From positions 81,524 to 145,523 of the forward strand of contig NW_003314421.1 of assembly GCF_000143415.4 (NCBI RefSeq): a stretch of DNA of 64,000 bases, given 5' to 3'. This stretch comes from Selaginella moellendorffii (Eukaryota; Plantae; Lycopodiophyta). Made by a program: the position numbers and the translations under genes. The notes below the pieces were generated by a model that was not told where the DNA came from, did not search any database, and was given only the letters and a program-made list of their open reading frames with translations. Of this stretch, positions 67 through 62,742 are shown in pieces (position 1 is the first letter of the stretch; every line of letters begins with the position of its first letter).

Positions 67-90
67 AAGCTCTATTTCGTTAAAGTGGGA
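67..90. repeat. Terminal inverted repeat (left, copy 1)
   Basis: AAGCTCTATTTCGTTAAAGTGGGA; an inverted TCCCACTT copy follows at 101-108. Confidence 0.9.
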
Positions 91-508
91 ATTGTCATTA
101 TCCCACTTGTAAAATAAGGTTTCCAAACCTTTATATAGTATATAAATATAACAAAATTCAACTGCATTGAGGCACATGCCATTTTATTTTAAACAAGGAA
201 ATGTCTACTCAATCACTTCTCCTCCCCCTGCCACTGCTTCACCTCTCTCTTCTCGTTGTCATCGTCGTCCAATTTCTTTCCATCCTTTTAATATTGGCTC
301 AGTTGCTCCGAGTCTAGGTGGAGCCCAAGTCCCCATTCAATCTTTACTTTCCCCTTATTAATAAAACAACTTCGTAGACTTCCAATAACATGCTGTAACA
401 CTTCTAGTATAATGCAAATCCTCTCAAAGAATTGTCTTTTAATATTAATACAATGGCATGGAACCCCATGCCATAATAAGTTACATTTTTAAATAAATAC
501 ATGCCATC

Positions 509-2214: not shown

Positions 2215-2275
2215 TTCTTCTGCGACCTACATGGACAATGTTAGAAATGGTAAAAGGTTAGGAATGGATGTACTA

Positions 2276-5200: not shown

Positions 5201-6033
5201 GCTCTTCTTTTTGGTGGGTGTAGTGTTCGAACCCGAGGCAATGGCATCACCGAGTAGCTTCTTTTTTGGAGCAGCAGAGTCGGACGTCGGCTTGAGCTTG
5301 ACCACCCTTTTCTGCTTCGGGGTAGTTTCCAGATCGACCCCCTTCCCCTTCGCTTCGCAAACTGGAGGCACTCTCAACGGCTCAATGTTGGAATATAGTT
5401 TTTGAACATCGCCGTAGGTGAGGTCCGTGGATTCCATGTGATCTTCATAGACCCGTAGCGTCTTTGAAATTGTGGGCCTCCTGGACAACCTCTCCCTAGC
5501 TCCCTCTAGGAATTCCTGATAGCCGCTGTCCCCCTCCGGGAAGCCGCTAGGATGTGCAAGGTGGATCTTGAAGGCGGACGCTGTCTCTACCACAAGTGCC
5601 AGTCCATATTCTTGCATGGAACTGCATGGAGTGTCTGTCACTTGGATGAGGATCCCCATGCATTCTTTTCTCCCACCATCTGTGTTGTACAGCATCAGAT
5701 CCTCACCTTCCATCCCGAAAGTCTAACTGGTGAGCTCCTCCCCCTTCTCTGCATCCACATTGACAGTGGCTGGAAGAAGAACGCAATTCCTCGCCTGTTC
5801 AGAAATGCACAACAATTAGAGCTGACAGATGAAAAGCTAGCAACTAGAAATAACGTGAGGCCACACGCCATTCACCACTGCATCAGATGTCTTGAGGCTG
5901 CATCCTAAGATAGCGTGAGGCTACACGCCATCTGTAACCGGATTGCACTCGAGAGCCCAATCGGTGCATGCCAATGTTGCTACTGAATGGCATGTGGCCT
6001 CATGCCATTTTCTACTTGGCCTAAAAGACTTAC
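2276..6033 (-). CDS. Multi-exon ParB-like/methyltransferase-like protein with acidic C-terminal region, copy 1 (internal deletions, assembly gap, one stop)
   Basis: ORFs 5003-5713, 3327-5144, 2276-2881. ParB/Srx-like segment RIDIQSKYNHRLVSDEWVEKLKQKM…FYAVSGQHSSLAM. C-terminal NPKK…LSWVF…GKCVVEYNCGGLFFRAALLKGVPCVAV resembles a degenerate SAM-binding end of an amino-MTase. ~50-nt introns join the exons in frame. Confidence 0.6.
5042..5141. other. Assembly gap (100 N)
   Basis: Run of N. Confidence 0.99.
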
Positions 6034-6246
6034 CATTTGAAGCCGAATGGAGGCCGTGACAATCGAGGCCGGACTCGCTGGCGAATGTGCACTGTGTGTG
6101 CAGCGGATCGTAGCAGCAAGGCTACTCTGCCACTTACAGTTGGAGAGTGGCGCTGAAATCTCCCGGGACGCCAAGTGGGCTGCGTGTGGGTGGCGGAGTG
6201 GGCGGCGGAGTTGGCGGCGAAGTTACAAACTGGGTGTGTCTTGAAG

Positions 6247-6425
6247 TGGACGCCGATGCACACGAGCGCGATGCGAGCGCGAGTGTGATGCAAGCGCGAG
6301 TGGACGCCGATGCACACGAGAAACCTGTAGAGAAGGCGCGAATGTGAGCGTGATCGCGAGTGGGAGCGCGATGCGAGCGCGAGTGTGATGCGAGCGCGAG
6401 CGCGAGTGTGATGCAAGCGCGAGTA
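6247..6425. repeat. CpG-rich short tandem repeats (GCGCGAGTGTGATGC-like) upstream of the ParB-like gene
   Basis: Imperfect repeats of gagcgcgatgcgagcgcgagtgtgatgc; counterpart at 26465-26620. Confidence 0.7.
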
Positions 6426-8953
6426 CGAAGCAAAATGCAAAACCTAACCTCACACGCGCGAAATGTCACAAAGGTTGGTAATCCCGCCACGTCATCATTC
6501 CTCGGACTTGGGCGCCACCATTAATTTCTGGATTTCCGCGCGCATGCAAGCACGCAAAATCCAAAAGAAATCCACAACGTCATCATTCCTCGGACTGCAT
6601 GCACGCGAAATCCAAAAGAAAGATCATGATTGGGATATCATTTAATACCCTCGCTATATTTATACCATGCATGATTGGATATTCCAAAGCATCTTGTATT
6701 TCCAAAAATGGCAGATGTTCAGCTAAATAAAGAAATTCTATCTGTTTCTATTTTTCTCTCAAATCAATATTATAGCGTGTGGGCTCATGCAATTTTGAAC
6801 CAAAGAAACCCAAAAAACGTTGGACCCAAAATAATTTGAAAAAACCCAAAAAACCCTAAACATTTTAAACCCAAAAATCCAGGCGTCCTGTGGCGTTATT
6901 CCTTGAATGGCGTGTGGGCGCATGCCATTTTCAGGGCCAAATGCTGAATGGAGAAAAATTCCCTTTCAGTGCAAATGCTGCAAGAGGCAGATGCCGAGCA
7001 CAAAGGACTGTAACTACCTCACATGACACAGATAAACTTTTCTCTATTTGGCAAAGATAAACTTTATAGCGTGTGGGCTCATGCAATTTTGAACCCAAAA
7101 AATGCACCAAAAAATTCTCGGCGTCATCTGGCGTTATCTCTTGAATGGCGTGGGGCCGCATGCCATTTTCAGGGGCACATAGGAGTATATTCCTAGAATA
7201 TTCTGACACGCGTGAGATTTTTTTGAGTTTTCTGGAGATCCAACCGTTAGATCGCAACTATATTTTACAGAATGGTATACAATGTCTTTCTTGATGACTC
7301 TGCAAAGAAGCATCTCGATCGGACACCACATGAGACCACACGAGCCTTACAATGTTTCAGGGGCATTTGCCATAGATCCGACCGTTATTTTTCTCCAAGA
7401 TTTTACAGTTTGGTGTGCATTGACCTTTCCATCGACACTGCAAAGGGACATCACAATCAGATGCGGGATCACAAGAAACTAACTTCACTAACTCTGGTTT
7501 CACCAAGATCTACGTAATGAGTTATGAAATGAAAGGACCCTCTCTATTAAAATGTGTTTATGGTCCTAGGGGCATTGTGACATATCAAAGGATTTTGCAT
7601 CAAGTTCTGTATTTGCATGTTTATCAAGCTACTGAATTGCTAAACCCTAAACCCTAAACATGTGGCAAATGCTGCGTGAAGAAAGATGCCCTTTCTGGGC
7701 AAATGCTGTAAGAGGCAGATGCCGAGCAGATGTATCTCAGGCTAGCGAAGGGGACAAACGAAAGCTAGCTATAAACATGACGGGATGCAAATAGATTACT
7801 AGGCTGGTCCTACGAAAATCAAAAACCATAATTGAAAACATTGAAAATGCAAAAAGAAAGGTTTATAATATTTTTGAATTTTAAGCAACCAAAGGAATGT
7901 AAGTAGGGCATGTGTTTGTAAGTTTAAAAATGCCTCAACCACTTAAATTCCCAAGTAAATAAAGCTGTTTCTATTTTTGGTACAGGTAAACTTTATAGCG
8001 TGTGGGCTCATGCAATTTTGAACCCAGAAATGCACCAAAAAATGCTCGACTAGCATTATTCTTTGAATGGCGTGTGGCCTTATATTGCCATAAATGGACG
8101 TACACACACAGCATAATTATTCCTTTACACGGCGAATAATCTTGGCGCGGATCGCTGACATGGCATGGCAAAGTTCGAATCACTGACATGGCACAGCTGG
8201 ATCGAGGCAAGGACATGATGTGACAAAGTTCAACCTCCGACAGCAAAGTCTAGAAGCTACTCAGTTTGAAATTTGTCAGAGGAATCATAAAATCTGGTTT
8301 GTCAGAGGATTTGATGTGACGTTCAAGCGTGTGTTATTTTTGAATTCTCGAACTCATTCCTAGGTCTATCATTTTTGTGCGCCGTGTTCTTGGTTCCGCT
8401 GAGCGCAGTGAGCGCTGCTTGTGTAAGCGGCGTTGTGGGCTGTGGTTTATGCGTCTACGAGCGGTTGCGGCATTGCGAGCGCCATTGCGAGCGGCAGTTT
8501 ATGCGAGTGGCAGTTTGTGCGAGCGGCGCTACGAGCAGTTGCGGTGTTGCGAGCGGCGCTACGAGTAGTTGCGGTGTTGCGAGCGGCACTGTCTTTGGTG
8601 TGGCTACCGCTTCCTCTTGATATTCGGCACTTGTGCTTCCTGTTATGTTCACCATGGAATGGCTTAGGACCACATTTAGAAATGGCATGAGGCCACATGC
8701 CATCTTGGGCCCTTGCAATTTCATGGCTAGCGTATTGTCATGTATGTTTTTACTTGCCTGCAGCTGTGTGTATATCAAGATGGCATGAGGCCTCATGCCA
8801 ATTTTGTGAATGCGAAATTTCACGTGGGTGTCAATAGCATGTTTGAATAATGGCATGTGGCCTCATGCTATTGAGGTTGTTTGGTATGTTATGATTTAGG
8901 CCATTCTCCAATCATTTTTTATATGGTCTTAACTTCTTTTCTGCACTTTCAGA

Positions 8954-11900
8954 ATGGCCTTCAGGGTTGGGGAAAAGGTTTACATTTTGAATGGTGGGAA
9001 GAGAGTTGCAAAAGGGACCCTTGTGTCTATGGATCGGAACTTTGTTATACACTGTCAAAGGCTTGGGGAAGGCAATGCTGCTGTATCAGTAGAGACTGTC
9101 TTCGATGGGAATGTGGTCGCTATTGAACGAGGAGAGATGGTCGTCGGGGTAAATGTTGTTGTTGCCTTGAAAAATCTTCAGAAGAAAGCAGATGTTGGGG
9201 ACAGCGCAAGTGCGACGCATGTTCCCTCCGTGGATCTTAAGAACCGTGCTACATGGATTCAGGCAAAGGTGTTTCTAAACAACCCCGAGGGGTAGGTGGT
9301 AGCTGAGGGCTTAGCCACAGTTGTCGATCCAAGAGATGCGGTTGCTAATCAAGAATTGGGCTGGGATGATATTGGAGTTGTGATTTTAGAGGTTGTTGAC
9401 ACAGAAGAAAACAGTCTGACTATTGGAAGCATTGTGCGGTGGAAATTGAGGCACTTAGTGTTTGAGAATGTGAAGGATTCACAATCAAACACCACTACAA
9501 CTGATGACAGAACATCTCTTCATGGGAAAAGAAAGTACACCTTCCTAAAGCGCAGCCAAAGGGATCTGAGCAACGAACCGAAAAGGCAGAAAATGGCGAT
9601 GGAGGTTCGAATGGTCTTAACAGTTGCTTGTTGCAAGAGGAGGTGCTGTCAACATGCTGATTGGGATGCTATTGAAGAGGAGAGAGCAAGATACAAGACA
9701 TTGTCCTGGAAGGCAGCTCGCAATTTTGTGTATGAGGCATTACGGTCATTTGTTGATGCTTCAGAACATCAGGTGGGGGGCATGGTCTTCCAGAGGGGTT
9801 TGGTCTGCATGAAGGCATGGAGAATCATTTATGGAGTCCCTCGAAGCACATTCTACAGAATCAAAACTGAGTTCGAGGAACAAAGGGTTCAACAGGCAGT
9901 CCATGGGAACGACAGTACGCACAAAACCAGGGGTCATTTTGTATATGGAGAGGCAATCTTCAAGAGGTTTGTCGAGACATGTAGCGAGCAGCAACCACAT
10001 AAAACCTGCCTCTTGGAAGATGGAACACGAGACACCCAACGAGTTCTCCCTTCCATGTATACCAAGGGGGCCATATTGGAAGATGTGAATCGGGAACTCC
10101 AGAGTAATGGCTACAGGAAGCTGAGCCAATCTAGATTTAGTAGATTGTGGAGCAACAGGTTCAGGGATGTGAGTATAGGAAAGTACTCCAGCTTTTCAAA
10201 GTGTGACGAGTGCACTGCTATCAAAATGGCTTTGTCGAAGAATTCTTGCAGCGCTCAAGAGCGAGAGACGTTGGTTAGAAGGCGGCTCGACCACAACATC
10301 GAGCAGAGAAGCTGCAGGACTGCATATTATCATAACAGGATTCTCTCCATGGAGAGACCTGACTCTTACCTCTGCATCATCCACGACAAAATGGACCAGA
10401 AAAAGACGTGCTTACCTCGACTCAATCCTGCCCCCAAGGCAATCTCTTCATCCATGCAGCTGCCTGTGTCTCTGTTTGGCATAATCGCTCATGGGCATGG
10501 TGCCCAGAACTATGGGAACTTCTTTGTACCTCTATGGGGTGGCGGGGGTGCAAACATGATGATTGCGTCCCTAGCAAAACACTTAAGGTCTCTGCAAAGT
10601 GTGCAGACTGAGCTGAATGGCCAACCCTTGCATAAGGCCCTTGTCGATCGAACCCCATACAGGGTTCAGCTGGAGGAGGAGCAAAGGCTTGCAGTATCGC
10701 GTGGGGCCCCATGCCATCCCAGTGAATATGTTGGCCATCAGATTGTAGGGTTATCACGTGAGGCCTCATGCCATTCCGACGAGGCTGGTCGCCCGGTGAA
10801 TGCACAGCCTCATCCAAACGAAGCAGAATCTCAAGGAAGTTCTTGCGGCCGATGTGGCCTTCCACCCCATCTTCTGCTCCAAACAGACAATGCTGGCAGT
10901 GAGAACAAAAACATGTACGTCTTCGCGTACTTGGCGATGCTTGTTGCCAAAGGCATATTTGAAACGGTTACACTTGGCTTTCTCATGGTTGGGCACACTC
11001 ATGAAGACGTGGATGCCATGTTCAGTCACCTGGCAGAGTCCCTCCGGCGATCCAATGTCCTCACCCTCCCACAACTCTACGATGAATTCCAAAATTGCAT
11101 CAAAGGCACTGTTGAAGCTGCACTTCTGACAGAGGTTCCAGACTTTAAGGGGTTTGTAAGAGGCTACATCAGGGACGGATCCGAAATGCTGATTGGCCAC
11201 TCCAAGCCTCTTCAGTTTCATTTCAGCATGCGTGACGGTGCTCTAGTGATGAGGTACAAGATGAGAGAATGGGACACAGTGTGGCTGCCAGTGGACGGCA
11301 TTGAACTCTTCAAGAGAGATCCCATAATTGGGGAACCTATAATTCCTCAAGGTTCCCCACGGCCGATGCACCCGGATGGACTCAAAGACCAGGAAAGTAT
11401 AGTGGCCGGGATTAGACAGCATATTGCCTTTTGGAAGAGGGGGTTGGTGTTTGGTGGAGAATCCTATTTTCAGAGGTGCAAGCCTTTGCTCGAATACTGG
11501 GAGAAGATTATATCTGCTATCCAAAATGGGCCGGTTGTATATGAAGAATTGGAAGAGTCCTTTTGGCCAGAACCCAGAGCACCAGATAGTAGCGGAACAA
11601 TTTCCTTTGGAAATGCAGTGACAGATAACGATGTTGAGGATCACTATTGTGGGCCGAGGAACAAGAAGCCGGATTCAGCATTCAATCCAGTACAGGTCTG
11701 CAAAGGAATGGTCGTGCTTGTCAGACCCAGTAATAAAAAACAAATGATATGGGTGGGGCGCTGCATCACTGATGCAGAGGAGGATGCGGAAACTAACTCC
11801 TTCAATGTAACTGTGGAGTGGTTCAAGCCAAGTTCCGAATATACGAAGGATTGCCTAGAAAAGAGATGGGTGTTGAATCCAAGGGATCCCAGCATGAGCA

Positions 11901-12095
11901 TATCGGTGGATAATGTTGTGCATGGTTGGATGCGGAAGCAGAGTGCCACCATCACCTTGCCAGACCATGCAAAAGATGCAGCAAGAGCATTCATAACCCG
12001 GGTTCAAGGTGAGATTCATTAATATTCCTTTACTAAGTTTCTAATGTATTTTATTTCAAGGTGAACAATCCGAATCTGAATCAGAGGAGGCGTGA
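8954..12095 (+). CDS. Sola-like DDE transposase, copy 1 (premature TAG at 9293-9295; short terminal exon 12061-12095)
   Basis: ORFs 8954-9295 and 9296-12022. Motifs FSKCDEC, HDKMDQKK, LQTDNAGSENKN, FLMVGHTHEDVDAMF, typical of Sola-related transposases. Copy 2 has GAG where copy 1 has TAG. Putative intron 12009-12060 gives the end …RVQGEQSESESEEA*. Confidence 0.82.
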
Positions 12096-13601
12096 TGGCA
12101 TGTGGCCTTACGCCATTCCTAGGTGAGATGATACAAATAACAAGTATAAATTCTTAGTTGTTCTAGCAAATCTTACTTAAAGTTCAAGGTGAACAAGCCG
12201 AATATGAATTCATCGGATTGTTATAACAAATTGCGAGGTGATGGCATGAGGCGATATGCCATTTGAGAGTGGTAGCCATTCCTATATGAGGTGAGTGAAA
12301 TATTTATTAGAAATACCTCATTCAATTGTGCACTTCTAAGTCTTGGTCCACTCAGTACTGTTTGCATGTTTTTATTTTAATTCTTTCTCTAAAATGTTAT
12401 TTAGCATGTGGCTTCATGCCATTGCTCTCCACAATCATGCATTGAATTTTTCTATCCTTGCATAATACTTCTCCATATATATAGCATGTGCGCACATGTG
12501 ATATGGTTCATTAGGCCTGATATAGTGTGTGAGGTAAAACAAAGATGATGTGACATATGCATTTACCAATCACACGTGCATAAATCTAATAATATGGCGT
12601 GTGGCCCATATTATTAGATTTATTGTACCATCATTCCCTTGCAGCGTGTGTGTTGGTTTCCTTTTATAACACAACGAACTCCATATTTTAGGGTGAAGAG
12701 CGTTCTCATGGCAAGCACAAAATCTGTAAGTGAGGCAGAAAAGGAGACGGAGAAGGAGATAGGTGAAGATGTAAAATATATAAGTCTTCCAAACTCCCCG
12801 TACTATACTCCAGGTGATCATTTTTCTGAACAAACGGCAACATTAACAACTATCGAGAACGCCCCAGTAACGTCAGAGACAACAATCCAAAGCAAAACAA
12901 CTGACCCGGAGAAGGATGATAGTACCGCTGAGAGTACCAAAAAGGAGGTGTCCACTAGCGCTTAGGCTTATAATGGCGTGTGCCCTCATGCCATTTACTT
13001 GATCACCAAATACTTTTTTCCCTTTGCACTAGTATATCTTAATACCGGTCTGAGAAATAGAATGGCATGTGCCCTCAGGCCTTTTACTAAATCACCTTTG
13101 AAAGAAATGCAAGCCTCTATGTCGTAAAAAAAAGGTACTAGAGAAATTCCTTAATAATATGAATGTTATTTAGTTTCATGAAAATACACTAAGGGTCAAA
13201 TGAGTTAAACGACTTCTCCAGACTAGCAATGCCTCTTGCTACACCTTCACAATTAGATTCGTTAGAAAAAGATAACATTGAATAATATCTAAATGTTCTC
13301 ACCATTAAGTTATATGTCTAGCTAATAGGAATGACGTTCATCTTGGAAAGCTCACCACACGCTCAATGAACAAACAAATAATGTGTGCGTGCATGCCATC
13401 GCTCTTCTTTAGCTTCAGATTCGGCTTGTTCACCTTGACAATGAGATTTATTATACAACCAGATGGACTCAGTCTGGACACAAAGTCACCGCGCTAGTCA
13501 CCATGCCCCAGATATGTCTAGCCCCTGGACAAAAAACATATAATTTCACGTCATTTTCAAATACTTGAAAATTTGTACCTAGTCCCATTTTACTGAATAA
13601 A

Positions 13602-13625
13602 TCCCACTTTAACGAAATAGAGCTT
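13602..13625. repeat. Terminal inverted repeat (right, copy 1)
   Basis: TCCCACTTTAACGAAATAGAGCTT, exact reverse complement of 67-90. Confidence 0.9.
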
Positions 13626-20164: not shown

Positions 20165-20188
20165 AAGCTCTATTTCGTTAAAGTGGGA
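20165..20188. repeat. Terminal inverted repeat (copy 2)
   Basis: AAGCTCTATTTCGTTAAAGTGGGA. Confidence 0.9.
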
Positions 20189-21767
20189 TTTATTAAGTAA
20201 AATGGGACTAGGTACAAATTTTCAAGTATTTGAAAATGACGTGAAATTATATGTTTTTTGTCTAGGGGCTAGACATATCTGGGGCATGGTGACTAGCGCG
20301 GTGACTTTGTGTCCAGACTGAGTCCATCTGGTTGTATAATAAATCTCATTGTCAAGGTGAACAAGCCGAATCTGAAGCTAAAGAAGAGCGATGGCATGCG
20401 CACACACATTATTTGTTTGTTCATTGAGCGTGTGGTGAGCTTTCCAAGATGAACGTCATTCCTATTAGCTAGACATATAACTTAATGGTGAGAACATTTA
20501 GATATTATTCAATGTTATCTTTTTCTAACGAATTTAATTGTGAAGGTGTAGCAAGAGGCATTGCTAGTCTGGAGAAGTCGTTTAACTCATTTGACCCTTA
20601 GTGTATTTTCATGAAACTAAATAACATTCATATTATTAAGGAATTTCTCTAGTACCTTTTTTTTACGACATAGAGGCTTGCATTTCTTTCAAAGGTGATT
20701 TAGTAAAAGGCCTGAGGGCACATGCCATTCTATTTCTCAGACCGGTATTAAGATATACTAGTGCAAAGGGAAAAAGGTATTTGGTGATCAAGTAAATGGC
20801 ATGAGGGCACACGCCATTATAAGCCTAAGTGCTAGTGGACACCTCCTTTTTGGTACTCTCAGCGGTACTATCATCCTTCTCCGGGTCAGTTGTTTTGCTT
20901 TGGATTGTTGTCTCTGACGTTACTGGGGCGTTCTCGATAGTTGTTAATGTTGCCGTTTGTTCAGAAAAATGATCACCTGGAGTATAGTACGGGGAGTTTG
21001 GAAGACTTATATATTTTACATCTTCACCTATCTCCTTCTCCGTCTCCTTTTCTGCCTCACTTACAGATTTTGTGCTTGCCATGAGAACGCTCTTCACCCT
21101 AAAATATGGAGTTCGTTGTGTTATAAAAGGAAACCAACACACACGCTGCAAGGGAATGATGGTACAATAAATCTAATAATATGGCGTGTGGCCCATATTA
21201 TTAGATTTATGCACGTGTGATTGGTAAATGCATATGTCACATCATCTTTGTTTTACCTCACACACTATATCAGGCCTAATGAACCATATCACATGTGCGC
21301 ACATGCTATATATATGGAGAAGTATTATGCAAGGATAGAAAAATTCAATGCATGATTGTGGAGAGCAATGGCATGAAGCCACATGCTAAATAACATTTTA
21401 GAGAAAGAATTAAAATAAAAACATGCAAACAGTACTGAGTGGACCAAGACTTAGAAGTGCACAATTGAATGAGGTATTTCTAATAAATATTTCACTCACC
21501 TCATATAGGAATGGCTACCACTCTCAAATGGCGTATCGCCTCATGCCATCACCTCGCAATTTGTTATAACAATCCGATGAATTCATATTCGGCTTGTTCA
21601 CCTTGAACTTTAAGTAAGATTTGCTAGAACAACTAAGAATTTATACTTGTTATTTGTATCATCTCACCTAGGAATGGTGTAAGGCCACATGCCATCACGC
21701 CTCCTCTGATTCAGATTCGGATTGTTCACCTTGAAATAAAATACATTAGAAACTTAGTAAAGGAATA

Positions 21768-24593
21768 TTAATGAATCTCACCTTGAACCCGGGTTATGAA
21801 TGCTCTTGCTGCATCTTTTGCATGGTCTGGCAAGGTGATGGTGGCACTCTGCTTCCGCATCCAACCATGCACAACATTATCCACCGATATGCTCATGTTG
21901 GGATCCCTTGGATTCAGCACCCATCTCTTTTCTAGGCAATCCTTCATATATCCGGAACTTGGCTTGAACCACTCCACAGTTACATTGAAGGAGTTAGTTT
22001 CCGCGTCCTCCTCTGCATCAGTGATGCAGCGCCCCACCCATATCATTTGTTTTTTTTTACTAGGTCTGACAAGCACGACCATTCCTTTGCAGACCTGTAC
22101 TGGATTGAATGCTGAATCCCGCTTCTTGTTCCTCGGCCCACAATAGTGATCCTCAACATCGTTATCTGTCACTGCATTTCCAAAGGACATTGTTCCGCTA
22201 CTATCTGGTGCTCTGGGTTCTGGCCAAAAGGACTCTTCCAATTCTTCATATACAACCGGCCCATTTTGGATAGCAGATATAATCTTCTCCCAGTATTCGA
22301 GAAAAGGCTTGCACCTCTGAAAATAGGATTCTCCACCAAACACCAACCCCCTCTTCCAGAAGGCAATATGCTGTCTAATCCCGGCCACTATACTTTCCTG
22401 GTCTTTGAGTCCATCCGGGTGCATCGGCCGTGGGGAACCCTGAGGAATCATAGGTTCCCCAGTTATGGGATTTCTCTTGAAGAGTTCAATGCCGTCCACT
22501 GGCAGCCACACTATGTCCCATTCTCTCATCTTGTACCTCATCACTGGAGCACCGTCACGCATGCTGAAATGAAACTGAAGAGGCTTGGAGTGGCCAATCA
22601 GCGTTTCGGATCCGTCCCTGATGTAGCCTCTTACAAACCCCTTAAAGTCTGGAACCTCTGTCACAAGTGCAGCTTCAACAATGCCTTTGATGCAATTTTG
22701 GAATTCATCGTAGAGTTGTGGGAGGGTGAGAACATTGGATCGCCGGAGGGACTCTGCCAGGTGACTGAACATGGCATCAATGTCTTCATGAGTGTGCCCA
22801 ACCATGAGAAAGACAAGTATAACCGTTTCAAATATGCCTTTGGCAACAAGCATCGCCAAGTACGCGAAGACGTACATGTTTTTGTTCTCACTGCCAGCAT
22901 TGTCTGTTTGGAGCAGAAGATGGGGTGGAAGGCCACATCGGCCGCAAGAACTTCTTTGAGATTCTGCTTCGTTTGGATGAGGCTGTGCATTCACCGGGTG
23001 ACCAGCCTCGTCGGAATGGCATGAGGCCTCATGTGATAACCCTACAATCTGACGGCCAACATATTCATTGGGATGGCATGGGGCCCCACGCGATACTACA
23101 AGCCTTTGCTCCTCCTCCAGCTGAACCCTGTATGGGGTTCGATCGACAAGGGCCTTATGCAAGGGTTGGCCGTTCAGCTCAGTCTACGCACTTTGCAGAG
23201 ACCTTAAGTGTTTTGCTAGGGACGCAATCATCATGTTTGCACCCCCGCCACCCCATAGAGGTTCAAAGAAGTTCCCATAGTTCTGGGCACCATGCCCATG
23301 AGCGATTATGCCAAACAGAGACACAGGCAGTTGCATGGATGAAGAGATTGCCTTGGGGGCAGGATTGAGTCGAGGTAAGCACGTCTTTTTCTGGTCCATT
23401 TTGTCGTGGATGATGCAGAGGTAAGAGTCAGGTCTCTCCATGGAGAGAATCCTATTATGATAATATGCAGTCCTGCAGCTTCTCTGCTCGATGTTGTGGT
23501 CGAGCCGCCTTTTAACCAACGTCTCTCGCTCTTGAGCGATGCAAGAATTCTTCGACAAAGCCATTTTGATAGCAGTGCACTCGTCACACTTTGAAAAGCT
23601 GGAGTACTTTCCTATACTCACATCCCTGAACCTGTTGCTCCACAATCTACTAAATCTAGATTGGCTCATCTTCCTGTAGCCATTACTCTGGAGTTCCCGA
23701 TTCACATCTTCCAATATGGCCCCCTTGGTATACATGGAAGGGAGAACTCGTTGGGTGTCTCGTGTTCCATCTTCCAAGAGGCGGGTTTTATGTGGTTGCT
23801 GCTCGCTACATGTCTCGACAAACCTCTTGAAGATTGCCTCTCCATATACAACATGACCCCTGGTTTTGTGAGTACCGTCGTTCCCATGGACTGCCTGTTG
23901 AACCCTTTGTTCCTCGAACTCAGTTTTGATTCTGTAGAATGTGGTTTGAGGGACTCCATAAATGATTCTCCATGCCTTCATGCAGACCAAACCCCTCTGG
24001 AAGACCATGCCCCCCACCTGATGTTCTGAAGCATCAACAGATGACCGTAATGCCTCATACACAAAATTGCGAGCTGCCTTCCAGGACAATGTCTTGTATC
24101 TTGCTCTCTCCTCTTCAATAGCATCCCAATCAGCATGTTGACAGCACCTCCTCTTGCAACAAGCAACTCTCGAGACCATTCGAACCTCCATCGCCATTTT
24201 CTGCCTTTTCAGTTCGTTGCTCAGATCCCTTTGGCTGCGCTTTAGGAAGGTGTACTTTCTTTTCCCATGAAGAGATGTTCTGTCATCAGTTGTAGTGGTG
24301 TTTGATTGTGAATCCTTCACATTCTCAAACACTAAGTGCCTCAATTTCCACCGCACAATGCTTCCAATAGTCAGACTGTTTTCTTCTGTGTCAACAACCT
24401 TTAAAATTGCAACTCCAATATCATCCCAGCCCAATTCTTGATTAGCAACCGCATCTCTTGGATCGACAATTGTGGCTAAGCCCTCAGCTACCACCTCCCC
24501 CTCGGGGTTGTTTAGAAACACCTTTGCCTGAATCCATGTAGCACGGTTCTTAAGATCCACGGAGGGAACATGCGTCGCACTTGCGGAGGCCAT
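21768..24593 (-). pseudogene. Sola-like transposase, copy 2 (N-terminal deletion, stop at 23184-23186)
   Basis: ORFs 23184-24593 and 21768-23162 are near-identical to 9296-12022; about 250 bp of the N-terminus present in copy 1 is missing. Confidence 0.85.
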
Positions 24594-26833
24594 TCTGAAA
24601 GTGCAGAAAAGAAGTTAAGACCATACAAAAAATGATTGGAGAATGGCCTAAATCATAACATACCAAACAACCTCAATAGCATGAGGCCACATGCCATTAT
24701 TCAAACATGCTATTGACACCCACGTGAAATTTCGCATTCACAAAATTGGCATGAGCCCTCATGCCATCTTGATAAACACACAGCTACAGGCAGGTAAAGA
24801 AACTATTGGCAATATGCTAGTGATGAACTTGCAAGCCCCAAGATGGCATGAGCCCTCATACCATTAGTGGTACCGTAGTGCCGCTCGCACCACCGCAACT
24901 GCTCGTAGTGCCGCTCGCACAAACTGCCACTTGCATAAACTGCCGCTCGCAATGGCGCTCCCAATGCCGCAACCGCTCGTAGACGCATAAACCACAGCTC
25001 ACAACGCCGCTTACACAAGCAGCGCTCACTGCGCTCAGCGGAACCAAGAACACGGCGCACAAAAATGATAGACCTAGGAATGAGTTCGAGAATTCAAAAA
25101 TAACACACGCTTGAACGTCACATCAAATCCTTTGACAAACAAGATCTTATGATTCCTTTGACAAATTTCAAACTGAGTAGCTTCTAGACTTTGCTGTCAG
25201 ACGTTGAACTTTGTCACATCATGTCCTTGCCTCGATCCAGCTGTGCCATGTCAGTGATTCGAACTTTGCCATGCCATGTCAGCGATCCGCGCCAAGATTA
25301 TTCGCCGTGTAAATGAATAATTATGCTGTGTGTGTACGTCCATTTATGGCAATATAAGGCCACACGCCATTCAAAGAATAATGCTAGTCGAGCATTTTTT
25401 GGTGCATTTTTGGGTTCAAAATTGCATGAGCCCACACGCTATAAAGTTTATCTGTACCAAAAATAAAAATAGCTTTATTTACTTGGGAATTTAAGTGGTT
25501 GAGGCATTTTTAAACTTACAAACACCCTACTTACATTCCTTTGGTTGCTTAAAATTCAAAAATATTATAAACCTTTCTTTTTGCATTTTCAATGTTTTCA
25601 ATTATGGTTTTTGATTTTCGCAGGACCAGCCTAGTAATCTATTTGCATCCCGTCATGTTTATAGCTAGCTTTCGTTTGTCCCCTTCGCTAGCTTGAGATA
25701 CATCTGCTCGGCATCTGCCTCTTACAGCATTTGCCCAGAAAGGGCATCTTTCTTCACGCAGCATTTGCCACATATTTAGGGAGGGTTTAATTCAGTAGCT
25801 TGATAAACATGCAAATACAGAACTTGATGCAAAATCCTTTGATATGTCACAATGCCCCTAGGACCATAAACACATTTCAATAGAGAGGGTCCTTTCATTT
25901 CATAACTCCTTACGTAGATCTTGGTGAAACCAGAGTTAATGAAGTTGGTTTCTTGTGATCCCGCATTTGATTGTGATGTCCCTTTGCAGTGTCGATGGAA
26001 AGGTCAATGCACACCAAACTGTAGAATCTTGGAGGAAAATAACGGTCGGATCTATGGCAAATGCCCCTGAAACATTGTAAGGCTCGTGTGGTCTCATGTG
26101 GTGTCCAATCGAGATGCTTCTTTGCAGGGTCATCAAGAAGGACATTGTATACCATTCTTTATTTAGCTGAACATTTGGCATTTTTGGAAATACAAGATGC
26201 TTTGGAATATCCAATCATGCATGGTATAAATATAGCGAGGGTATGAAATGATATCCCAATCATGATCTTTCTTTTGGATTTCGCGTGCATGCAGTCCGAG
26301 GAATGATGACGTTGCGGATTTCTTTCGGATTTCACATGCATGCATGCGCGCGGCGATCCAGAAATTAATGGTGGCGCCCAAGTCCGAGGAATGATGACGT
26401 TGCGGGATTACCAACCGTCGTAACATTTCACGCGTGTGAGGTTAGGTTTTGCATTTTGCTTCGTACTCGCACTCGCACACTCGCGCTCGCATCGCGCTCC
26501 CACTCGCGATCACGCTCACATTCGCGCTCATCTACCTTCTCTACAGGTTTCTCATGTGCATCGGCGTGTACTCGCGCTTGCATCACACTTGCGCTTGCAT
26601 CGCGCTCGTGTGCATCGGCGTCCACTTCAAAACACACCCAGTTTGTAACTTCGCCGCCAACTCCGCCGCCCACTCCGCCACCCACACGCAGCCCACTTGG
26701 CGTCCCGGGAGATTTCAGCGCCACTCTCCAACTGTAAGTGGCAGAGTAGCCTTGCTGCTACGATCCGCTGCACACACAGTGCACATTCGCCAGCGAGTCT
26801 GGCCTCGATTGTCACGCCTCCATTCGGCTTCAA

Positions 26834-29800
26834 ATGGTAAGTCTTTTAGGCCAAGTAGAAAATGGCATGAGGCCACATGCCATTCAGTAGCAACATTGGC
26901 ATGCACCGATTGGGCTCTCGAGTGCAGTCCGGTTACAGATGGCGTGTAGCCTCACGCCATCTTAGGATGCAGCCTCAAGACATCTGATGCAGTGGTGAAT
27001 GGCGTGTGGCCTCATGTTATTTCCAGCTGCTAGCTTTTCATCTGTCAGCTCTAATTGTTGTGCATTTCTGAACAGGCGAGGAATTGCGTTCTTCTTCCAG
27101 CCACTGTCAATGTGGATGCAGAGAAGGGGGAGGAGCTCACCAGTTGGACTTTCGGGATGGAAGGCGAGGATCTGAGGCTGTACAACACAGATGGTGGGAG
27201 AAAAGAATGCATGGGGATCCTCATCCAAGTGACAGACACTCCATGCAGTTCCATGCAAGAATATGGACTGGCACTTGTGGTAGAGACAACGTCCGCCTTC
27301 AAGATCCACCTTGCACATCCTAGCGGCTTCCCGGAGGGGGGCAGCGGCTATGAGGAATTCCTAGAGGGAGCTAGGAAGAGGTTGTCCAGGAGGCCCACAA
27401 TTTCAAAGATGCTGCGAGTCTATGAAGATCACATGGAATCCACGGACCTCACCTACGACGATGTTCAAAAACTATATTCCAACATTGAGCCGTTGAGAGT
27501 GACTCCAGTTCGCGAAGCGAAGGGGAAGGGGGTCGATCTGGAAACTACCCCGAAGCAGAAAAGGGTGGTCAAGCTCAAGCCGACGTCTGACTCTCCTGCT
27601 CCAAAAAAGAAGCTACTCGGTGATGCCATTGCCTCAGGTTCGAACACTACACCCACCAAAAAGAAGAGCCGCAAAGAGCAGAAAGAGCAAGAAGAGGTAG
27701 CAGAAATCGTCGCAGATAATAGTACTTATTACTATTCCAACAAAGTATATACAATCGACATGAGCCACATCGACATCCAAAGCAAATACAACCACAAGCT
27801 AGTATCTGATGAGTGGGTGGAGAAACTGAAGCAGAAGATGCTGGCAAGTCCAGTAACACCCGACATCGCAGACGTGATCCCCTACTACCGAACAATGAAG
27901 GGCAAGACGAGGTTTCCAGACTTGATCAATAGGAAGGTGTTGGACGATCAGAACATCCGGTTCTATGCCGTCTCCGGGCAGCATTCTAGCTTGGCGATGC
28001 AAGAGATAGTTGTGGATATTATGGTGGGCGAGGAGGTGAAGAAAGTCTTCAAGACAAGAGTTGTCCGCATGATAAAAGGCAACTCGCCCCTCCGATCTAT
28101 CATATCCATCTCCCACGCGCAGAATGTCAAGCAAGAAACGTGCTACAAATCGGGTCTGCACGAGACATTGGCACAAACACGGAAGCTCTGGGTTCAACTG
28201 AAGAAGCCACAAAAACCAGGACAAGGACGTGCACTAGCAACTAGCGCCTGGCAGGTAAGCCTCGTTGCATGTGGCATAGCATGTGGCCTCACGCCATTTC
28301 CATTGCAGGAATTCTCGAGTCTTCTCTCGAAAACACTGGGGGTCAATGACACACTCAGCATCCATAACATTCTACTCGCGACAAAAGTTGTTTTTGACAA
28401 ATGGGTAGATGTGCTGAGGAGGTACCATGACGGGGAGTTGCTAAACTCAATGGGTGTGGAGGACGGCCGGAAGCCCAATGATTTGAAGCTCAACGCCTTG
28501 CGTTTCTCGCGGTCTCTAGACGACGACGACCTTCTGACAGTGGCTAATGCTCTTCTACGTGGTGAGGTAGTCTTCAACAAGACCAAAATGACTTCCGGCC
28601 ATATTGTGACATACGAGGACTTGTGCACGACTCTGAGAGCTTGTGCGCTATTGAAGGATTGGATCTTCGAGCAAGTGGCCGTGGAGAGGGTGAGCATCGA
28701 CACCACGCAAGAGATGATGGAAGAGCTGGAGTTGTCAAATGAAGACATCGACGAGTACGTGAAGGGGGCCCCCAAGTTCATCGATCTGCTGCGGGATGCC
28801 ACGAAAAGTAAAGCTGAGAAGTTGGATCATCATCCAAATTTCATTAAGAGGGATGTCGACCGCCGGCTTCAGAAACAGCTCGACCCCGCAGCAGAGGCCT
28901 ATTGAGAACCTTACCGGGTATACGTGAATTCGGATGAGGATCAAAGGTGGAGGAGCTTCCGACTCCAAGGGCAAATGCGTTGTCGAGTACAACTGCGGCG
29001 GACTATTCTTTCGAGCCGCACTACTCAAGGGTGTCCCGTGTGTTGCGGTGACAAACTCCATTGAAGAGGTGACTTCAATGGAGCATATAATTACAGTTGC
29101 CAAAGAAAAACAGTATCTTCTCTGCGAACCTGGTGAGTACGCACTTTAAGTTTAAATGTTATCTCACAAGCTTTGTATGCAGGAGCGTGGCCACCCCCAG
29201 ATGTTGAAACGGCGTTAACAGCTACTGTTGAAGATACCCATGTTGGGCCGAGCTCACAACCTGCACAAGGTAAGGTCACGTGAGGCCTCACGCCATTTTG
29301 ATTATAGATCGTTGTGAATATTCAGACACGAGGACTGAAAAGCGCACTGGTGGTGCGTCGAAGAAGGACAAATAGACAAGCAATAGGAAAAAAGGAGGTA
29401 CAAATTATATTTGCAATGGCGTGTGGTCTCATGCCATTCCTTGCAGGAGACACTTCTTCAAAGGCAAAACAGGCAAGCACCAGCCAAGTACAACGGACGA
29501 GAGGTACCAATCATTTTTGTTATACGTGAATTCTCATGCCATTGCTTCTTGCAGCTCAAATTCCAAAGAGACTAGGGCAAGCAGCACAGACCTCACGACA
29601 AGAACCTGAAGGTTTGATGGCGTGTGGCCCCACGCAATTAACTAATGTTCTTTCAAATCGCGTCGAGGAAATCAAACGGAACAACGTGCCTCCAGTGGAG
29701 GAGGGGGAGGCCTCGGAGAGTGATAAGGAGAGTTCCGAAATAGGTACGATCATGACATATGGCCCCATGCACTTATCTAAGTTTGTATTTCAGGGGAACG

Positions 29801-30876
29801 AGTTGAACCAATGGAAAACTTTATGAAAGGTAACTTAAAAATATTATGGGATGTTGCATGTGTTGATGCAATAATATACAGTTCAAGTGCCAAGGAGACG
29901 TCGTGAATCTCGAATTAGGCTACCTGCAAAACAGCTTTCAGACGCTGTAGACAAAGAGATGGACAACCGACCAGGGCAGAGGAGGAAGGGTAAAAGCATT
30001 TGTGTGCTTATCGCGTATGTCCTCATGCTATTTCTGTAGAACGGGCGCATAAGAAACGAAAGCGAAAGGGAATTGAGGAGCAGGCACCTGAGGATGCGGA
30101 AGGCACGACAGAGCCTCCAAGGACGGGAAGTAAAGCGTCATGGTTATTGCGTGGGTCCTCATGCCATTTCTTGCAGATCAAGCTCAAACTGACAGTGGTT
30201 ATAAAAAGCAAAAGCACGTTGGACAGTCGTCGGGATTAGAGGTGTTTGATTCGAAAAGGAAGAAGGGCAACGAAAAGATGATAGGTAATGCCTCGCGGTT
30301 ATGACGTGTGTGCTCATGCCATTCATTGCAGATCAAGGGCTGAGTGAAAGCAGCCAGTCACCACCTCCTGACTCAGATTCCTATGGCGGACTCCCCTTCC
30401 CCAATCTCAATGGAGAGGTACAATGGATGAGGGATGCTTTTCAAGTCAGGGCCATGTTTTTTTCATCTCGTCGTCTTTGAAGGGTGCAAGAACGTGCAGA
30501 AACCATGTTAAGACAGTCGGGTGAGGATACGGTCCTATGTCACGCACTAAAACAGGCTATGGATGTCTTGTATTTTGAGATGGAGACTCGGCCAGATGAT
30601 TTTCCCAAGATGGTCCTGGAAGAACAAGCCATCCAGCCTGAGCAGCCTATGGAAGAAATGCAGGAGGGGGATGAGGAGCCAGAGAAAGATAATGAGCAGG
30701 AAGAGCAGAAGGACGAAGAGGAGGACGAAGAAGAGGAGGACGAAGAGGACTTGGATGGCCCTCACAATGGTGACGATCGCAATAACGACGACGACGATGA
30801 TGACGAAGATGGCCAGCCTGAGGTGGCCAAAGAGCAGCGGAGGAAGGTCATACAAGACAAACCATCAGGTAAATAA
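26834..30876 (+). pseudogene. Multi-exon ParB-like/methyltransferase-like gene, copy 2
   Basis: ORF 27055-28905, then ~500 bp deleted from the MTase-like part, then a run of short exons joined by 47-56 nt introns, then acidic ORF 30484-30876; in-frame stops present. Confidence 0.65.
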
Positions 30877-30937
30877 TAGTACATCCATTCCTAACCTTTT
30901 ACCATTTCTAACATTGTCCATGTAGGTTGCAGAGCAA

Positions 30938-32641
30938 ATGGTAAGTAGAGATTATTCAGTTGAATTAAGATACAAACTCTAGCCTTTAGTGTCGAGGAAG
31001 GATAGTGCCAAGCAAGGGTCGAAACGTATGTCCAATCCTTCAGAGTCAGCAGTGCGCCCAAGTGATATTGGTCCTAGTTCCTCAATAGCAGTTGATGGTA
31101 AATACAGTATAGTCGATTCAATGTGCTAATGAGTTTGTTTTTAGTAGCACGGGAGGATACCATCTCAATCGAAGGGAGATATTTGGACATGCATATGGAT
31201 CCACCAGTGGACTCTACTTGCCTGCAAGAGTCATCAGAGCTGGTGGAGGCTACTATCCATATCAACGCCAAGCAAGCTGACCACACTCCACTTGATGCTG
31301 CCCATACCACTGAGTCAATCTTGTCCACGTATCCAACTGACGGTGACTAGGCGCCATTGGACCCGCATGAGGCCGCCCCAGCCGCCGAGCCGGTCGTATC
31401 CTCATTTCCAACGGACTCAACGTGTGCCCAATCGTCTGACTACGCGCCGTTGGAACCTCCCTACACCGCCCCTGCTGCCTGTTCGGTCATGTCCACTTTG
31501 CCAACGGAGGCACCAGCTGAAATGGCGTGTGATCACACGCCATCGGAACCACCCCATGCCACTGTTGAGCCAGTTGTACCAAAGTCTACAGCTGAAATGG
31601 CATGTGCCCACACGCCATCGGATGCGATTGACCCCATATTGCAGAGGAGAGTATTTCCGCCCTTCACGTTTCCTCGACCAAAACCCTCTGAACGACCATC
31701 GGGAGCACCATTCGCTAATATTGTAGATGGTAAAATTGACTTGTACCATTTTTTATGCTGACGCATTTCATTTCAGAGTCACGGCGAAGGTACTGTATCG
31801 TTTTTGATCTGAACGGTGTCCTTTTCTCCCATGAGCGTGGCTCGTCCTCGAATGTCACTACACCCTCCAAAGCCTGCGGTCGCAAGTTGGTCAAAAGAGA
31901 CAGATTCACATTAATCACACGGGAGAAACTGCGGGATCTAATAATGACCATGCGACACTTAAAACAGAGGGCCGGGTTCAATTTGCAATTGGGAGTTTGG
32001 ACATCCATGATGTGCCACAATGCATTAACGTTGCTACAGATGATGCACGATCAGACGTGAGTAATATTACCATTTGACTTTCTCCTAACGCAGGAGGATT
32101 GCTTGACTATGGTCCATGTGAGGGGTAGCAAGCCCATCTTCGTCAAGCCAGAGGCTGTAGTGATGAACCGGACTGCTAGGTCAAGTGAAATCCTCATCAT
32201 CAATGACTCGCCGATTAAAACTGCAGCGAACACGCACACATATGCAGTGCACCCCATCTTTTGCAGTATGGAAACTAGGGAGAAGAAACCGTATGTGTTC
32301 TGGGGCACCTTGCAAAACGGCTTGGAGCGATGGTGATAGAGAACCAGCCAGTCCAGGAGGTGGCTGTAGAAATCAACCAAATGGCAGATGGAATGGTATA
32401 TCAGAAGCCATTTGATCGGACAGACACCAGTCATCATTTATGGCATGTATATTGTCTAGCCAAGCACTATCCGCATCTCCATAATTTGTTCAACCGGATG
32501 GGTTCTTCGACCACTGAACATGAGCATGGACGTATTAGAGAAGAGATGGCATTACTATTGGGTTTAAATCCTGATAGTGTGGAGAGTGATGAAATTCCAA
32601 GATTATTGTATAGGCGTTGGAAGCAAAAAATAACAGTCTGA
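30938..32641 (+). pseudogene. FCP1/NIF-like HAD phosphatase gene, copy 2 (stops and frameshift)
   Basis: ORF fragments 31123-31350, 31357-31761, 31755-32060, 32103-32336, 32330-32641 match 509-2028. Confidence 0.75.
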
Positions 32642-33059
32642 GATGGCATGTATTTATTTAAAAATGTAACTTATTATGGCATGGGGTTCCATGCCATTGT
32701 ATTAATATTAAAAGACAATTCTTTGAGAGGATTTGCATTATACTAGAAGTGTTACAGCATGTTATTGGAAGTCTACGAAGTTGTTTTATTAATAAGGGGA
32801 AAGTAAAGATTGAATGGGGACTTGGGCTCCACCTAAACTCGGAGCAACTGAGCCAATATTAAAAGGATGGAAAGAAATTGGACGACGATGACAAGGAGAA
32901 GAGAGAGGTGAAGCAGTGGCAGGGGGAGGAGAAGTGATTGAGTAGACATTTCCTTGTTTAAAATAAAATGGCATGTGCCTCAATGCAGTTGAATTTTGTT
33001 ATATTTATATACTATATAAAGGTTTGGAAACCTTATTTTACAAGTGGGATAATGACAAT

Positions 33060-33083
33060 TCCCACTTTAACGAAATAGAGCTT
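33060..33083. repeat. Terminal inverted repeat (copy 2)
   Basis: TCCCACTTTAACGAAATAGAGCTT. Confidence 0.9.
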
Positions 33084-34756: not shown

Positions 34757-34821
34757 CTTCTTTGCGGTTTTTTTAATGTTTACTCAAGTTTATTTGTCAT
34801 TTTCATGCAGATATATAAATC

Positions 34822-46859: not shown

Positions 46860-47165
46860 TCAGGCCCTAGATATGTCCTAGCCCAATATGTTAAGCACCT
46901 GAGATGTCAGGCCCCGGATATGTCGGGCCCCAATATGTTTGGCACCTGATATGTTCGGCCCAGGACATGTCAGGCACCTGATATGCCAGGCCCCGAACAT
47001 GTCAGGCCCTGGATATGTCTAGGCCCCAGACATGTCAGGCCCAGGATATGTCCGGGCCCCGATATGTCCAGCCTTGGACATGTCGGGCACCCGATATGTC
47101 CAGGCCTTGATATATCTAGCCCCGGATATGTTGGGCCCCAGATATGTCGGGCCTTGGATATATCT
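46860..47165. repeat. Minisatellite, ~19-21 bp unit GATATGTCGGGCCCC-like, ~15 copies
   Basis: Repeated (g)atatgtc(a/g)ggc(c/a)cc units. Confidence 0.85.

Positions 47166-56750: not shown

Positions 56751-56781
<31 letters not shown>

Positions 56782-62711: not shown

Positions 62712-62742
<31 letters not shown>

What the first reader, a model, noticed from the sequence alone, without database searches (positions are those of the whole stretch)
28255..30331. One palindrome per mini-intron: binding sites hidden in ~50-nt introns of the cargo gene
Seen (copy 2, + strand): GT-AG segments 28255-28308, 29270-29325, 29398-29446, 29504-29554, 29612-~29667, 29744-29793, 29990-30039, 30130-30176, 30285-30331, and also 26837-26887. 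Each is 47-56 nt and contains one copy of the 22-bp palindrome. From 29133 on, removing them as phase-1 introns joins the short exons into one frame, apart from a copy-2-specific stop and one uncertain acceptor. The introns are otherwise dissimilar. Inference: introns serve as carriers that keep motif density high across a coding region, or they arose from a motif-containing intron-generating unit. The RNA hairpin next to the 3' splice site could also allow autoregulated splicing.
Basis: partly seen in the sequence, partly recalled or inferred. Interest (0 to 1): 0.88.

Follow-up and report, generated by a model that had tools for sequence, protein, structure and literature searches.

The report
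Transposon hides docking palindromes in introns
A decayed 13-kb jumping gene, probably from a non-seed plant, carries 29 copies of one 22-letter mirror-image DNA word, many of them inside the predicted tiny introns of its second gene, and these are likely landing sites for that gene's own protein, which is predicted to have a bacterial ParB-type fold, a design recently proposed for seaweed transposons but untested.

Summary
The observation mostly holds. All ten GT-AG segments exist and hold the palindrome ATGGCRTG-N6-CAYGCCAT. Eight are well-supported predicted introns; 26837-26887 is better read as the start of a 239-nt intron with three copies, and 29612-29667 is probably exon. Six more ~50-nt introns of the gene lack the motif, so it is not one per intron. 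The motif covers the whole element (29 copies in each of two copies), a 12.9-kb Sola-like transposon (24-bp TIR, 4-bp TSD, DUF7869 transposase). The cargo protein has a predicted ParB/Srx fold (Z 8.2) without the GxxR arginine, a possibly degenerate methyltransferase-like domain and a NIF phosphatase-like end. Nine metagenome loci fetched by transposase alone carry a divergent ParB-like gene with their own, different palindromes, in three cases readable as inside intron 1. Best reading (0.6): self-recognition sites for the accessory protein, tolerated mainly in non-coding DNA; near 3' splice sites the motif likely doubles as branch point. Introner origin and RNA-hairpin control are poorly supported. 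No spliced read was found. Published kin: Ectocarpus Sola1-1_Ec32, red-algal Plavaka PAG3, Arabidopsis VANC. New variant of a known kind.

The parts
20165..33083 (.). Element copy 2: 12.9-kb TIR DNA transposon, 24-bp TIRs at both ends, 4-bp target-site duplication GTTG
67..13625 (.). Element copy 1, inverted relative to copy 2, same TIRs, TSD ATCA, inserted in a Ty3/gypsy-like pol region; assembly gap 5042-5141
9296..12022 (+). Transposase-like open stretch of copy 1 (908 aa), Pfam DUF7869 E 1e-42; conserved D364, D531, D571/D573 as candidate DDD triad
21768..24614 (-). Transposase gene of copy 2, split by one stop; holds 2 palindromes in frame (23016, 23073)
26834..32640 (+). Accessory (cargo) gene, divergent from the transposase; about 1,780 aa predicted from the union of both copies; copy 2 has stops, a deletion at 28956-28961 and a frameshift near 32294
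26837..27075 (+). Predicted intron 1 (239 nt) with three palindromes (26862, 26939, 26999)
27770..28150 (+). ParB/Srx-fold domain (approximate limits), motif SGQHS in place of GxxR
28255..28308 (+). Predicted phase-0 intron (54 nt, no stop) with palindrome at 28276; two homologues lack 18-19 residues here
3345..4022 (-). Third domain, whole only in copy 1: SAM-methyltransferase-like by language-model features only
   Evidence: for; inconclusive
29270..29325 (+). Predicted phase-1 intron, palindrome near the 5' end (29275)
29398..29446 (+). Predicted phase-1 intron, palindrome 9 nt before the 3' end (29416)
29504..29554 (+). Predicted phase-1 intron, degenerate palindrome (29521, 4 mismatches)
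29612..29667 (+). Doubtful intron; palindrome at 29617 probably in coding sequence
29744..29793 (+). Predicted phase-1 intron, degenerate palindrome near the 5' end (29752)
29990..30039 (+). Predicted phase-1 intron, palindrome at 30010
30130..30176 (+). Predicted phase-1 intron, palindrome at 30146
30285..30331 (+). Predicted phase-1 intron, palindrome at 30301
29133..31776 (+). Span also holding six predicted short phase-1 introns without the motif (29133-29182, 29830-29881, 30869-30925, 30941-30989, 31098-31144/7, 31730-31776)
29484..30179 (+). Segment absent, in frame, from copy 1 and from a contig of run X2; holds four motif introns, the doubtful one and one motif-less intron
31777..32640 (+). 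Last exon: NIF/HAD phosphatase-like domain (Pfam NIF E 7.5e-6 on the copy-1 equivalent 509-1408)
20391..32989 (.). All 29 palindromes of copy 2 (ATGGCRTG-N6-CAYGCCAT, <=4 mismatches), spacing 57-1603 nt

Best explanation
The 22-bp palindrome occurs 29 times along a Sola-like DNA transposon and is likely the double-stranded DNA landing site of the element's own accessory protein, which is predicted to have a ParB-type fold; the ~50-nt segments are predicted ordinary spliceosomal introns that hold many copies because they are most of the non-coding room inside that gene. Shown: element ends, motif counts and positions, the open frame under the splicing model, and the same pairing of divergent ParB-like gene and family-specific palindrome in relatives. 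Inferred: splicing; binding by a dimer of the accessory protein; that one copy is all that fits in 50 nt beside the splice signals; that copies near the 3' splice site also supply the branch point (CTCAY); that the bound protein acts on the element's own chromatin (anti-silencing or self-marking, as for VANC). Canonical CTP clamping and methyl transfer are doubtful in this family, since the GxxR arginine is absent and no catalytic methyltransferase motif is recognisable.
For: Motif confined to the element (58 of 60 hits); 4.7 per kb in non-coding against 0.5 per kb in coding DNA. A scorer blind to frame and motif ranks the 13 model introns first among 292 candidates, scores 5.7-11.0 then 1.9; the 12 exons between them are all multiples of 3. 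BLASTP gaps of 18 and 19 residues at intron 28255 in two homologues, one an annotated Riccia protein. Contigs of run X2 have C at stop positions 28903, 29373 and 30478. Predicted fold: the top 8 VIA matches are ParB/Srx-fold proteins, best PadC Z 8.2, rmsd 2.8, 89 aligned. Of 80 loci fetched by transposase only, 9 (7 families at 85% identity) carry a divergent ParB-like ORF, one with Pfam N6_N4_Mtase above cut-off; all 9 hold 1-15 copies of a different palindrome, all between the two genes; in L049, L050 and L058 these read as inside intron 1. Six of 6 copies near a 3' splice site have CT before CAY against 17 of 46 other strand views (p 0.005, post hoc). Same design proposed in print for Sola1-1_Ec32 (PMC12477816) and Plavaka PAG3 (10.1101/2025.02.11.637652).
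Against: No binding data, and no helix-turn-helix or other DNA-reading domain identified (model pLDDT 53; weak matches beyond residue 125). GxxR reads GQHS. No spliced joint in the runs laid; contigs of X1 (RNA is a guess) cross intron 1 and intron 31730 unspliced. Motif positions are no better kept than other non-coding DNA between the two copies, 7 of 384 against 88 of 4648. A form lacking 29484-30179 is open in frame and has depth 93 against 6.6 in one run, so those sites look dispensable. The closest relatives (L001, L010, L012) have palindromes but contigs too short to show an accessory gene. The splice scorer's weights were hand-set from recalled plant consensus after I had seen the sequence.
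Confidence: 0.6

Rival explanations
1. The palindromes are transposase binding sites, like subterminal repeats of other TIR elements, spread along the element.
For: Seven copies lie within 1.6 kb of the left end and two near the right end; the asymmetric form of the motif points in opposite directions on the two halves of the element (p 0.006, post hoc); all palindrome-bearing loci have a transposase.
Against: The motif does not resemble the TIR; in 9 of 9 relatives with the ParB-like gene the copies lie between the genes, not at ends, though ends are mostly off-contig; a second, apparently unrelated element in this window pairs a ParB-like (by eye) and methylase-like gene with its own 40-bp palindrome array. 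The orientation flip also matches transcription direction.
Confidence: 0.15
2. The copies are sites for a host transcription factor, or neutral products of local duplication of exon-intron units, with no partner encoded by the element.
For: All introns from 29133 on are phase 1 with short 3n exons coding a low-complexity linker, which permits in-frame duplication; introns 30130 and 30285 share end sequence and the next exon start; the block 29484-30179 is dispensable.
Against: Flanks of most copies are unrelated (9 of 105 pairs at p<=0.05) while the 16 core positions are kept; copies also sit in both coding frames; each related family has a different palindrome, which a shared host factor would not predict.
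Confidence: 0.13
3. The introns arose from a motif-bearing intron-generating element (introner).
For: Uniform length 47-56 nt and a shared internal motif at a near-constant place (8-12 nt from the 3' end in 6 introns).
Against: Introners are defined by similarity reaching both splice boundaries (PMC9860276, passages); here it is limited to the interior motif. Junction repeats are 0-5 nt with no constant length. 18 of 29 copies are outside these introns. Predicted introns of the other element in this window are 48-56 nt without the motif, so the length is the local norm. Homologues end or have a gap at the 28255 position, so that intron position looks older than the motif.
Confidence: 0.05
4. 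The main role is an RNA hairpin next to the 3' splice site that lets the protein control its own splicing.
For: Six copies overlap the likely branch point; a hairpin there would hide it; 2 of 9 introns fold well.
Against: 7 of 9 introns fold no better than shuffles; most copies are outside introns; mismatches break the stem in many copies.
Confidence: 0.07

Closest known systems
Sola1-1_Ec32 of the brown alga Ectocarpus (PMC12477816; passages of the main text; table rows of supplements)
   Same: Large Sola1 element with 4-bp TSD and a gene on the strand opposite the transposase coding a ParB-like plus N4C/N6A methyltransferase protein, proposed to bind and modify its own element.
   Different: 21.5 kb with 282-bp TIR there, 12.9 kb with 24-bp TIR here; no palindromes named for it in what I read; here the methyltransferase-like domain is unrecognisable by sequence, a NIF-like domain follows, and sites are dispersed through introns. 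Sequences were not compared.
Plavaka (EnSpm) elements of red algae with PAG3 (10.1101/2025.02.11.637652; passages; supplements closed)
   Same: ParB-like accessory protein and inverted repeats in the same element, read as a self-binding pair.
   Different: Tandem arrays next to PAG3, not single copies in introns; PAG3 is fused to a 2OG oxygenase and the methylase is a separate gene; other transposase superfamily.
VANC/VANDAL anti-silencing in Arabidopsis (PMC5735166, PMC10398659; passages)
   Same: Element-encoded accessory protein with family-specific motifs in introns, intergenic and terminal non-coding regions; binding shown there.
   Different: 8-9-base non-palindromic motifs in tandem repeats, Mutator-like element; no relation of VANC to this protein was tested.
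Bacterial ParB/parS, KorB and phage ParB-N6_N4 methylase fusions (10.1101/2025.10.10.680097; passages)
   Same: Predicted fold of the N-terminal domain; many palindromic sites; fusion to N6_N4 methylase in relatives.
   Different: GxxR arginine needed for NTP binding is absent here; no HTH or C-terminal dimer domain identified; no ParA.
DUF3723 cargo of fungal Starships (10.1101/2021.12.13.472469; passages)
   Same: Nearest named clusters by language-model features, scores 0.96-0.97; also a conserved accessory gene of large transposons.
   Different: No Pfam DUF3723 hit; recognition 2230 is under the tool's threshold; Starships use tyrosine recombinases.
Introners (PMC9860276; passages)
   Same: Short introns of similar length sharing sequence.
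   Different: Similarity here does not reach the splice boundaries, no TSD or TIR pattern, one gene only.

Membership tests
Sola (Sola1) DNA transposons | 4-bp TSD and TIRs | tested here: met
   TSD GTTG and ATCA, 24-bp TIR; criterion from PMC10741241 passage
Sola (Sola1) DNA transposons | DDD transposase | tested here: inconclusive
   Conserved D364, D531, D571/D573 in 13 aligned homologues; catalytic role not shown; no solved relative
Sola (Sola1) DNA transposons | Transposase similarity to Repbase Sola1 entries | not testable with these tools
   No Repbase library; Pfam gives DUF7869, which no held paper names; link of DUF7869 to Sola is my recall
ParB CTPase clamp | ParB/Srx fold | tested here: met
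   VIA top 8 all of this fold, Z 8.2 to 4.9, on a predicted model; Foldseek gave only weak sulfiredoxin rows
ParB CTPase clamp | GxxR P-motif arginine | tested here: not met
   G-Q-H invariant, next residue S in 13 and T in 1 of 14 aligned sequences
ParB CTPase clamp | HTH domain reading a palindromic site | tested here: inconclusive
   Helical region has low confidence and only generic matches
ParB CTPase clamp | CTP binding, loading and sliding | not testable with these tools
   needs biochemistry
N6_N4 amino-methyltransferase (PF01555) | Pfam match and DPPY-type and FxGxG motifs in the window's protein | tested here: not met
   No Pfam hit; profile and shuffle tests against relatives' methylase exons negative
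N6_N4 amino-methyltransferase (PF01555) | Methyltransferase fold | tested here: inconclusive
   Atlas features 0.88-0.95 to methyltransferase-like clusters; single-sequence fold failed, pLDDT 39.5
Introner | Intron similarity reaching both splice boundaries | tested here: not met
Introner | Copies in many host genes | not testable with these tools
   No genome held
VANC-type anti-silencing system | Family-specific motif enriched in non-coding parts of the cognate element | tested here: met
VANC-type anti-silencing system | Accessory protein binds the motif and causes loss of methylation | not testable with these tools
   needs ChIP, EMSA and methylomes
Spliceosomal introns | Spliced junctions in transcripts | tested here: inconclusive
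   No joints in 7 RNA or guessed-RNA runs with little cover of the element

The most novel reading that the evidence does not exclude
A land-plant transposon has turned a phage-type ParB-methylase into a self-recognition protein that has lost both the nucleotide switch and methyl transfer and gained a CTD-phosphatase-like domain, and it has written its docking palindrome into its own minimal introns so that the same bases serve as protein site in DNA and branch point in RNA, tying occupancy of the element to output of the gene.
Probability: 0.2. Interest if true: 0.8.

Novelty: new variant of a known kind. Interest (0 to 1): 0.5.

Why it matters
[quoted passage not shown] ParB-like accessory proteins of algal transposons are proposed to do so but untested. 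This element gives a defined 22-bp candidate site, a gene model and related families with different palindromes, so swap experiments can test family-specific self-recognition. It extends the design to what is probably a land plant and shows how sites can be packed into 50-nt introns, possibly overlapping the branch point.

Tried and rejected
No whole genome held, so host introns could not be surveyed; the other element's predicted introns served as a small local control. No RNA holder listed. 8 of 23 listed runs were laid: X8 and X9 (about 12% of each read) gave reads almost only on a 40-nt piece at 26731-26770; X14 gave none; X1, X11, X12, X20 gave unspliced contigs or no cover; no splice joint. 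Word-based homologue searches for the cargo protein found nothing; the first metagenome scan, with the ParB-like alignment, found nothing; PDB sequence searches nothing; NCBIfam nothing relevant; Rfam nothing credible. Window motif in the 80 loci: 2 single hits. The long-flank loci of families 11-18, 20, 22 and 24 had neither ParB-like hits nor clusters above 4, but they look decayed, so they are a weak negative. Methyltransferase homology of the third domain was not detected by hhalign, hmmsearch or shuffles; the failed fold was not searched. No complex prediction was run. Paper searches: DUF7869 0 papers; ParB + methyltransferase + Selaginella + transposon 0; searches listed nothing that, in the passages read, describes palindromes dispersed in introns of a ParB-like transposon gene. 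The original Sola paper was not held. Iyer 2016 (PMC4738411) and the Marchantia 4mC preprint (10.1101/2021.02.12.428880), passages only, did not describe this element type. bioRxiv supplements (Bostrychia) were closed and may show such sites.
Full report
Setting. The window is repeat-rich eukaryotic DNA; no genome is held. Two inverted copies of one element lie at 67-13625 and 20165-33083, 92-99% identical in aligned blocks. Both end in the same 24-bp TIR and are flanked by 4-bp duplications, ATCA and GTTG. One gene codes a transposase-like protein (Pfam DUF7869, E 1e-42) with conserved aspartates at 364, 531 and 571/573. A 4-bp TSD and DDD transposase match the description of Sola (PMC10741241, passage); I could not compare with Repbase. 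Both copies carry stops or frameshifts. The host is probably a non-seed land plant: this is inferred from a Riccia homologue and ~50-nt introns.

The motif. ATGGCRTG-N6-CAYGCCAT has 56 matches at <=3 mismatches (0.9 expected) and 60 at <=4 (8.2 expected); 58 lie in the two copies, 29 each. In copy 2: 9 near the ends, 4 between the genes, 2 in the transposase frame, 3 in intron 1, 8 in short introns and 3 in accessory exons if 29617 is counted as exon. Density is 4.7 per kb in non-coding and 0.5 per kb in coding DNA (with 29617 as intron).

The introns. A scorer using generic splice signals only (weights hand-set from recalled consensus, after seeing the sequence) ranks 13 introns first among 292 candidates in 28962-32293, at 5.7-11.0 with the next at 1.9. 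The 12 exons between them are all multiples of three (chance 2e-6 if independent), so all are phase 1. The frame has four stops in copy 2 that copy 1 lacks; contigs of run X2 show C at 28903, 29373 and 30478. For the phase-0 intron 28255-28308, BLASTP to P0023 (annotated Riccia protein) and P0022 opens gaps of 18 and 19 residues at that place, and several genomic ORF calls end there. Six short introns lack the motif. So 8 of 14 short introns carry one copy; 11 of 14 copies in the gene are intronic, p 7e-9. Predicted introns of another element in the window are 48-56 nt and motif-free, so the length is local norm and the motif is not generic. RNA did not settle splicing: no joint in seven RNA or guessed-RNA runs, most with little cover; some contigs cross introns unspliced and may be DNA.

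Position in the intron. Six copies end 8-12 nt before the intron's 3' end. A YTNAY branch-like A at -15 to -19 is present in 13 of 15 short segments; in those six it is the CTCAY of the motif's right arm. All six have CT there against 17 of 46 other strand views (p 0.005, post hoc). Hairpins are weak: 2 of 9 with z<-2. Outside the motif 9 of 105 intron pairs reach p<=0.05 and junction repeats are 0-5 nt, which does not fit introners as defined in PMC9860276 (passages). The block 29484-30179 is missing in frame from copy 1 and from an X2 contig of depth 93 against 6.6 for the full form (one run, depth is not copy number). Between the two copies the motif is no better kept than other non-coding DNA.

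The accessory protein. About 1,780 aa are predicted. HMMER found 13 distant homologues of exon 2 sharing [SD]GQH. An AlphaFold model (mean pLDDT 53, higher over the first 115 residues) matches ParB/Srx-fold proteins in the top 8 VIA rows: PadC Z 8.2, KorB 6.7; the tool warns that Z near 8 can be common, but the rows agree in fold. The GxxR arginine needed for NTP binding (10.1101/2025.10.10.680097, passage) is absent. The atlas places this region near fungal DUF3723, a conserved Starship cargo. The third domain resembles methyltransferases by atlas features only; sequence tests were negative and its fold failed. The last exon matches Pfam NIF. No DNA-reading domain was identified.

Relatives. 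The best 80 of 261 metagenome loci were fetched by transposase alone. Eight hit the ParB-like profile on the opposite strand upstream, nine with a profile from those loci; L050 has N6_N4_Mtase above cut-off. All nine hold 1-15 copies of another palindrome (pattern drawn from these loci), and all copies lie between the two genes. In L049, L050 and L058 a short ATG exon and an acceptor bracket them, i.e. intron 1; the other six were not delimited. Closer relatives L001, L010 and L012 have 7, 6 and 10 copies of their own palindromes on short contigs. Long-flank loci of another group show neither feature but are decayed. A second element in the window repeats the pairing with a 40-bp palindrome.

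Mechanism. Most likely (0.6) the palindrome is the DNA site of the accessory protein, spread through whatever non-coding space the element has, one per 50-nt intron because no more fits, with the right arm serving as branch point where it lies near the 3' end. By analogy with VANC (PMC5735166, passages) the bound protein would act on the element's own chromatin. Binding, splicing and effect are inferred. Rivals: transposase sites 0.15, host factor or neutral duplication 0.13, RNA feedback 0.07, introner 0.05.

Known context. Sola1-1_Ec32 carries a divergent ParB-like plus methyltransferase gene proposed to modify its own element (PMC12477816, passages); Plavaka PAG3 lies beside tandem inverted repeats. 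Earlier AI notes of this scan report the same pairing in other genomes; they are unchecked and not counted as support, though one pointed to the Plavaka paper. What is new here is the probable land-plant host, dispersal through minimal introns, likely overlap with the branch point, apparent loss of catalytic motifs and the NIF-like tail. Verdict: new variant of a known kind, interest 0.5.

Noticed in passing
window 34118-38300 (+), partial second copy 52656-55642: A second, apparently unrelated element: 7 full and one half copy of a 40-bp palindrome at 82-89-nt spacing, probably in a 5' intron (strong acceptor at 34810, weak donor at 34091), upstream of a multi-exon gene with an IIDENHR/IIDGNH motif (ParB-like by eye) and a weak N6_N4_Mtase end (E 0.0016, under cut-off).
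   Followed up: partly
window 26731-26770: 40 nt shared with abundant RNA reads that continue into other sequence I recognise from recall as large-subunit rRNA; lies upstream of the accessory ATG in both copies; Rfam did not report it.
   Followed up: partly
window 31777-32640 and 509-1408: NIF/HAD phosphatase-like domain with DLNG at the first motif, in frame as last exon of the accessory gene.
   Followed up: partly
window 20391-32989: The asymmetric form of the palindrome tends to follow transcription direction of the two divergent genes (p 0.006, post hoc).
   Followed up: partly
window 29617, 31522, 31597: Exonic copies of the motif all read in the same frame (M-A-C-x-x-T), which may mark former introns or tolerated sites in a linker.
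   Followed up: no
window 29830-29881: Motif-less intron with a 6-mismatch remnant at the usual distance from the 3' end; may be a decayed copy.
   Followed up: no
L049:2523-3285, L061:1664-2391: 15-copy palindrome arrays at about 51-nt spacing between transposase and ParB-like gene.
   Followed up: partly
L010, L012, L001: Closest transposase relatives carry their own dispersed palindromes (6, 10 and 7 copies), on both sides of the transposase in L010 and L012.
   Followed up: partly
window 46878-47180: 16-nt period tandem array.
   Followed up: no
window 55643-57457 and 61604-63418: Two 99.9% identical 1.8-kb repeats 5,961 nt apart with internal 12- and 35-nt arrays, possibly LTRs of a young insertion.
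   Followed up: no
window 51579-52316 (-): ORF with a C-x-C-x9-C-x-H pattern like a SWIM finger by eye, no Pfam hit, next to the second copy of the other element.
   Followed up: no
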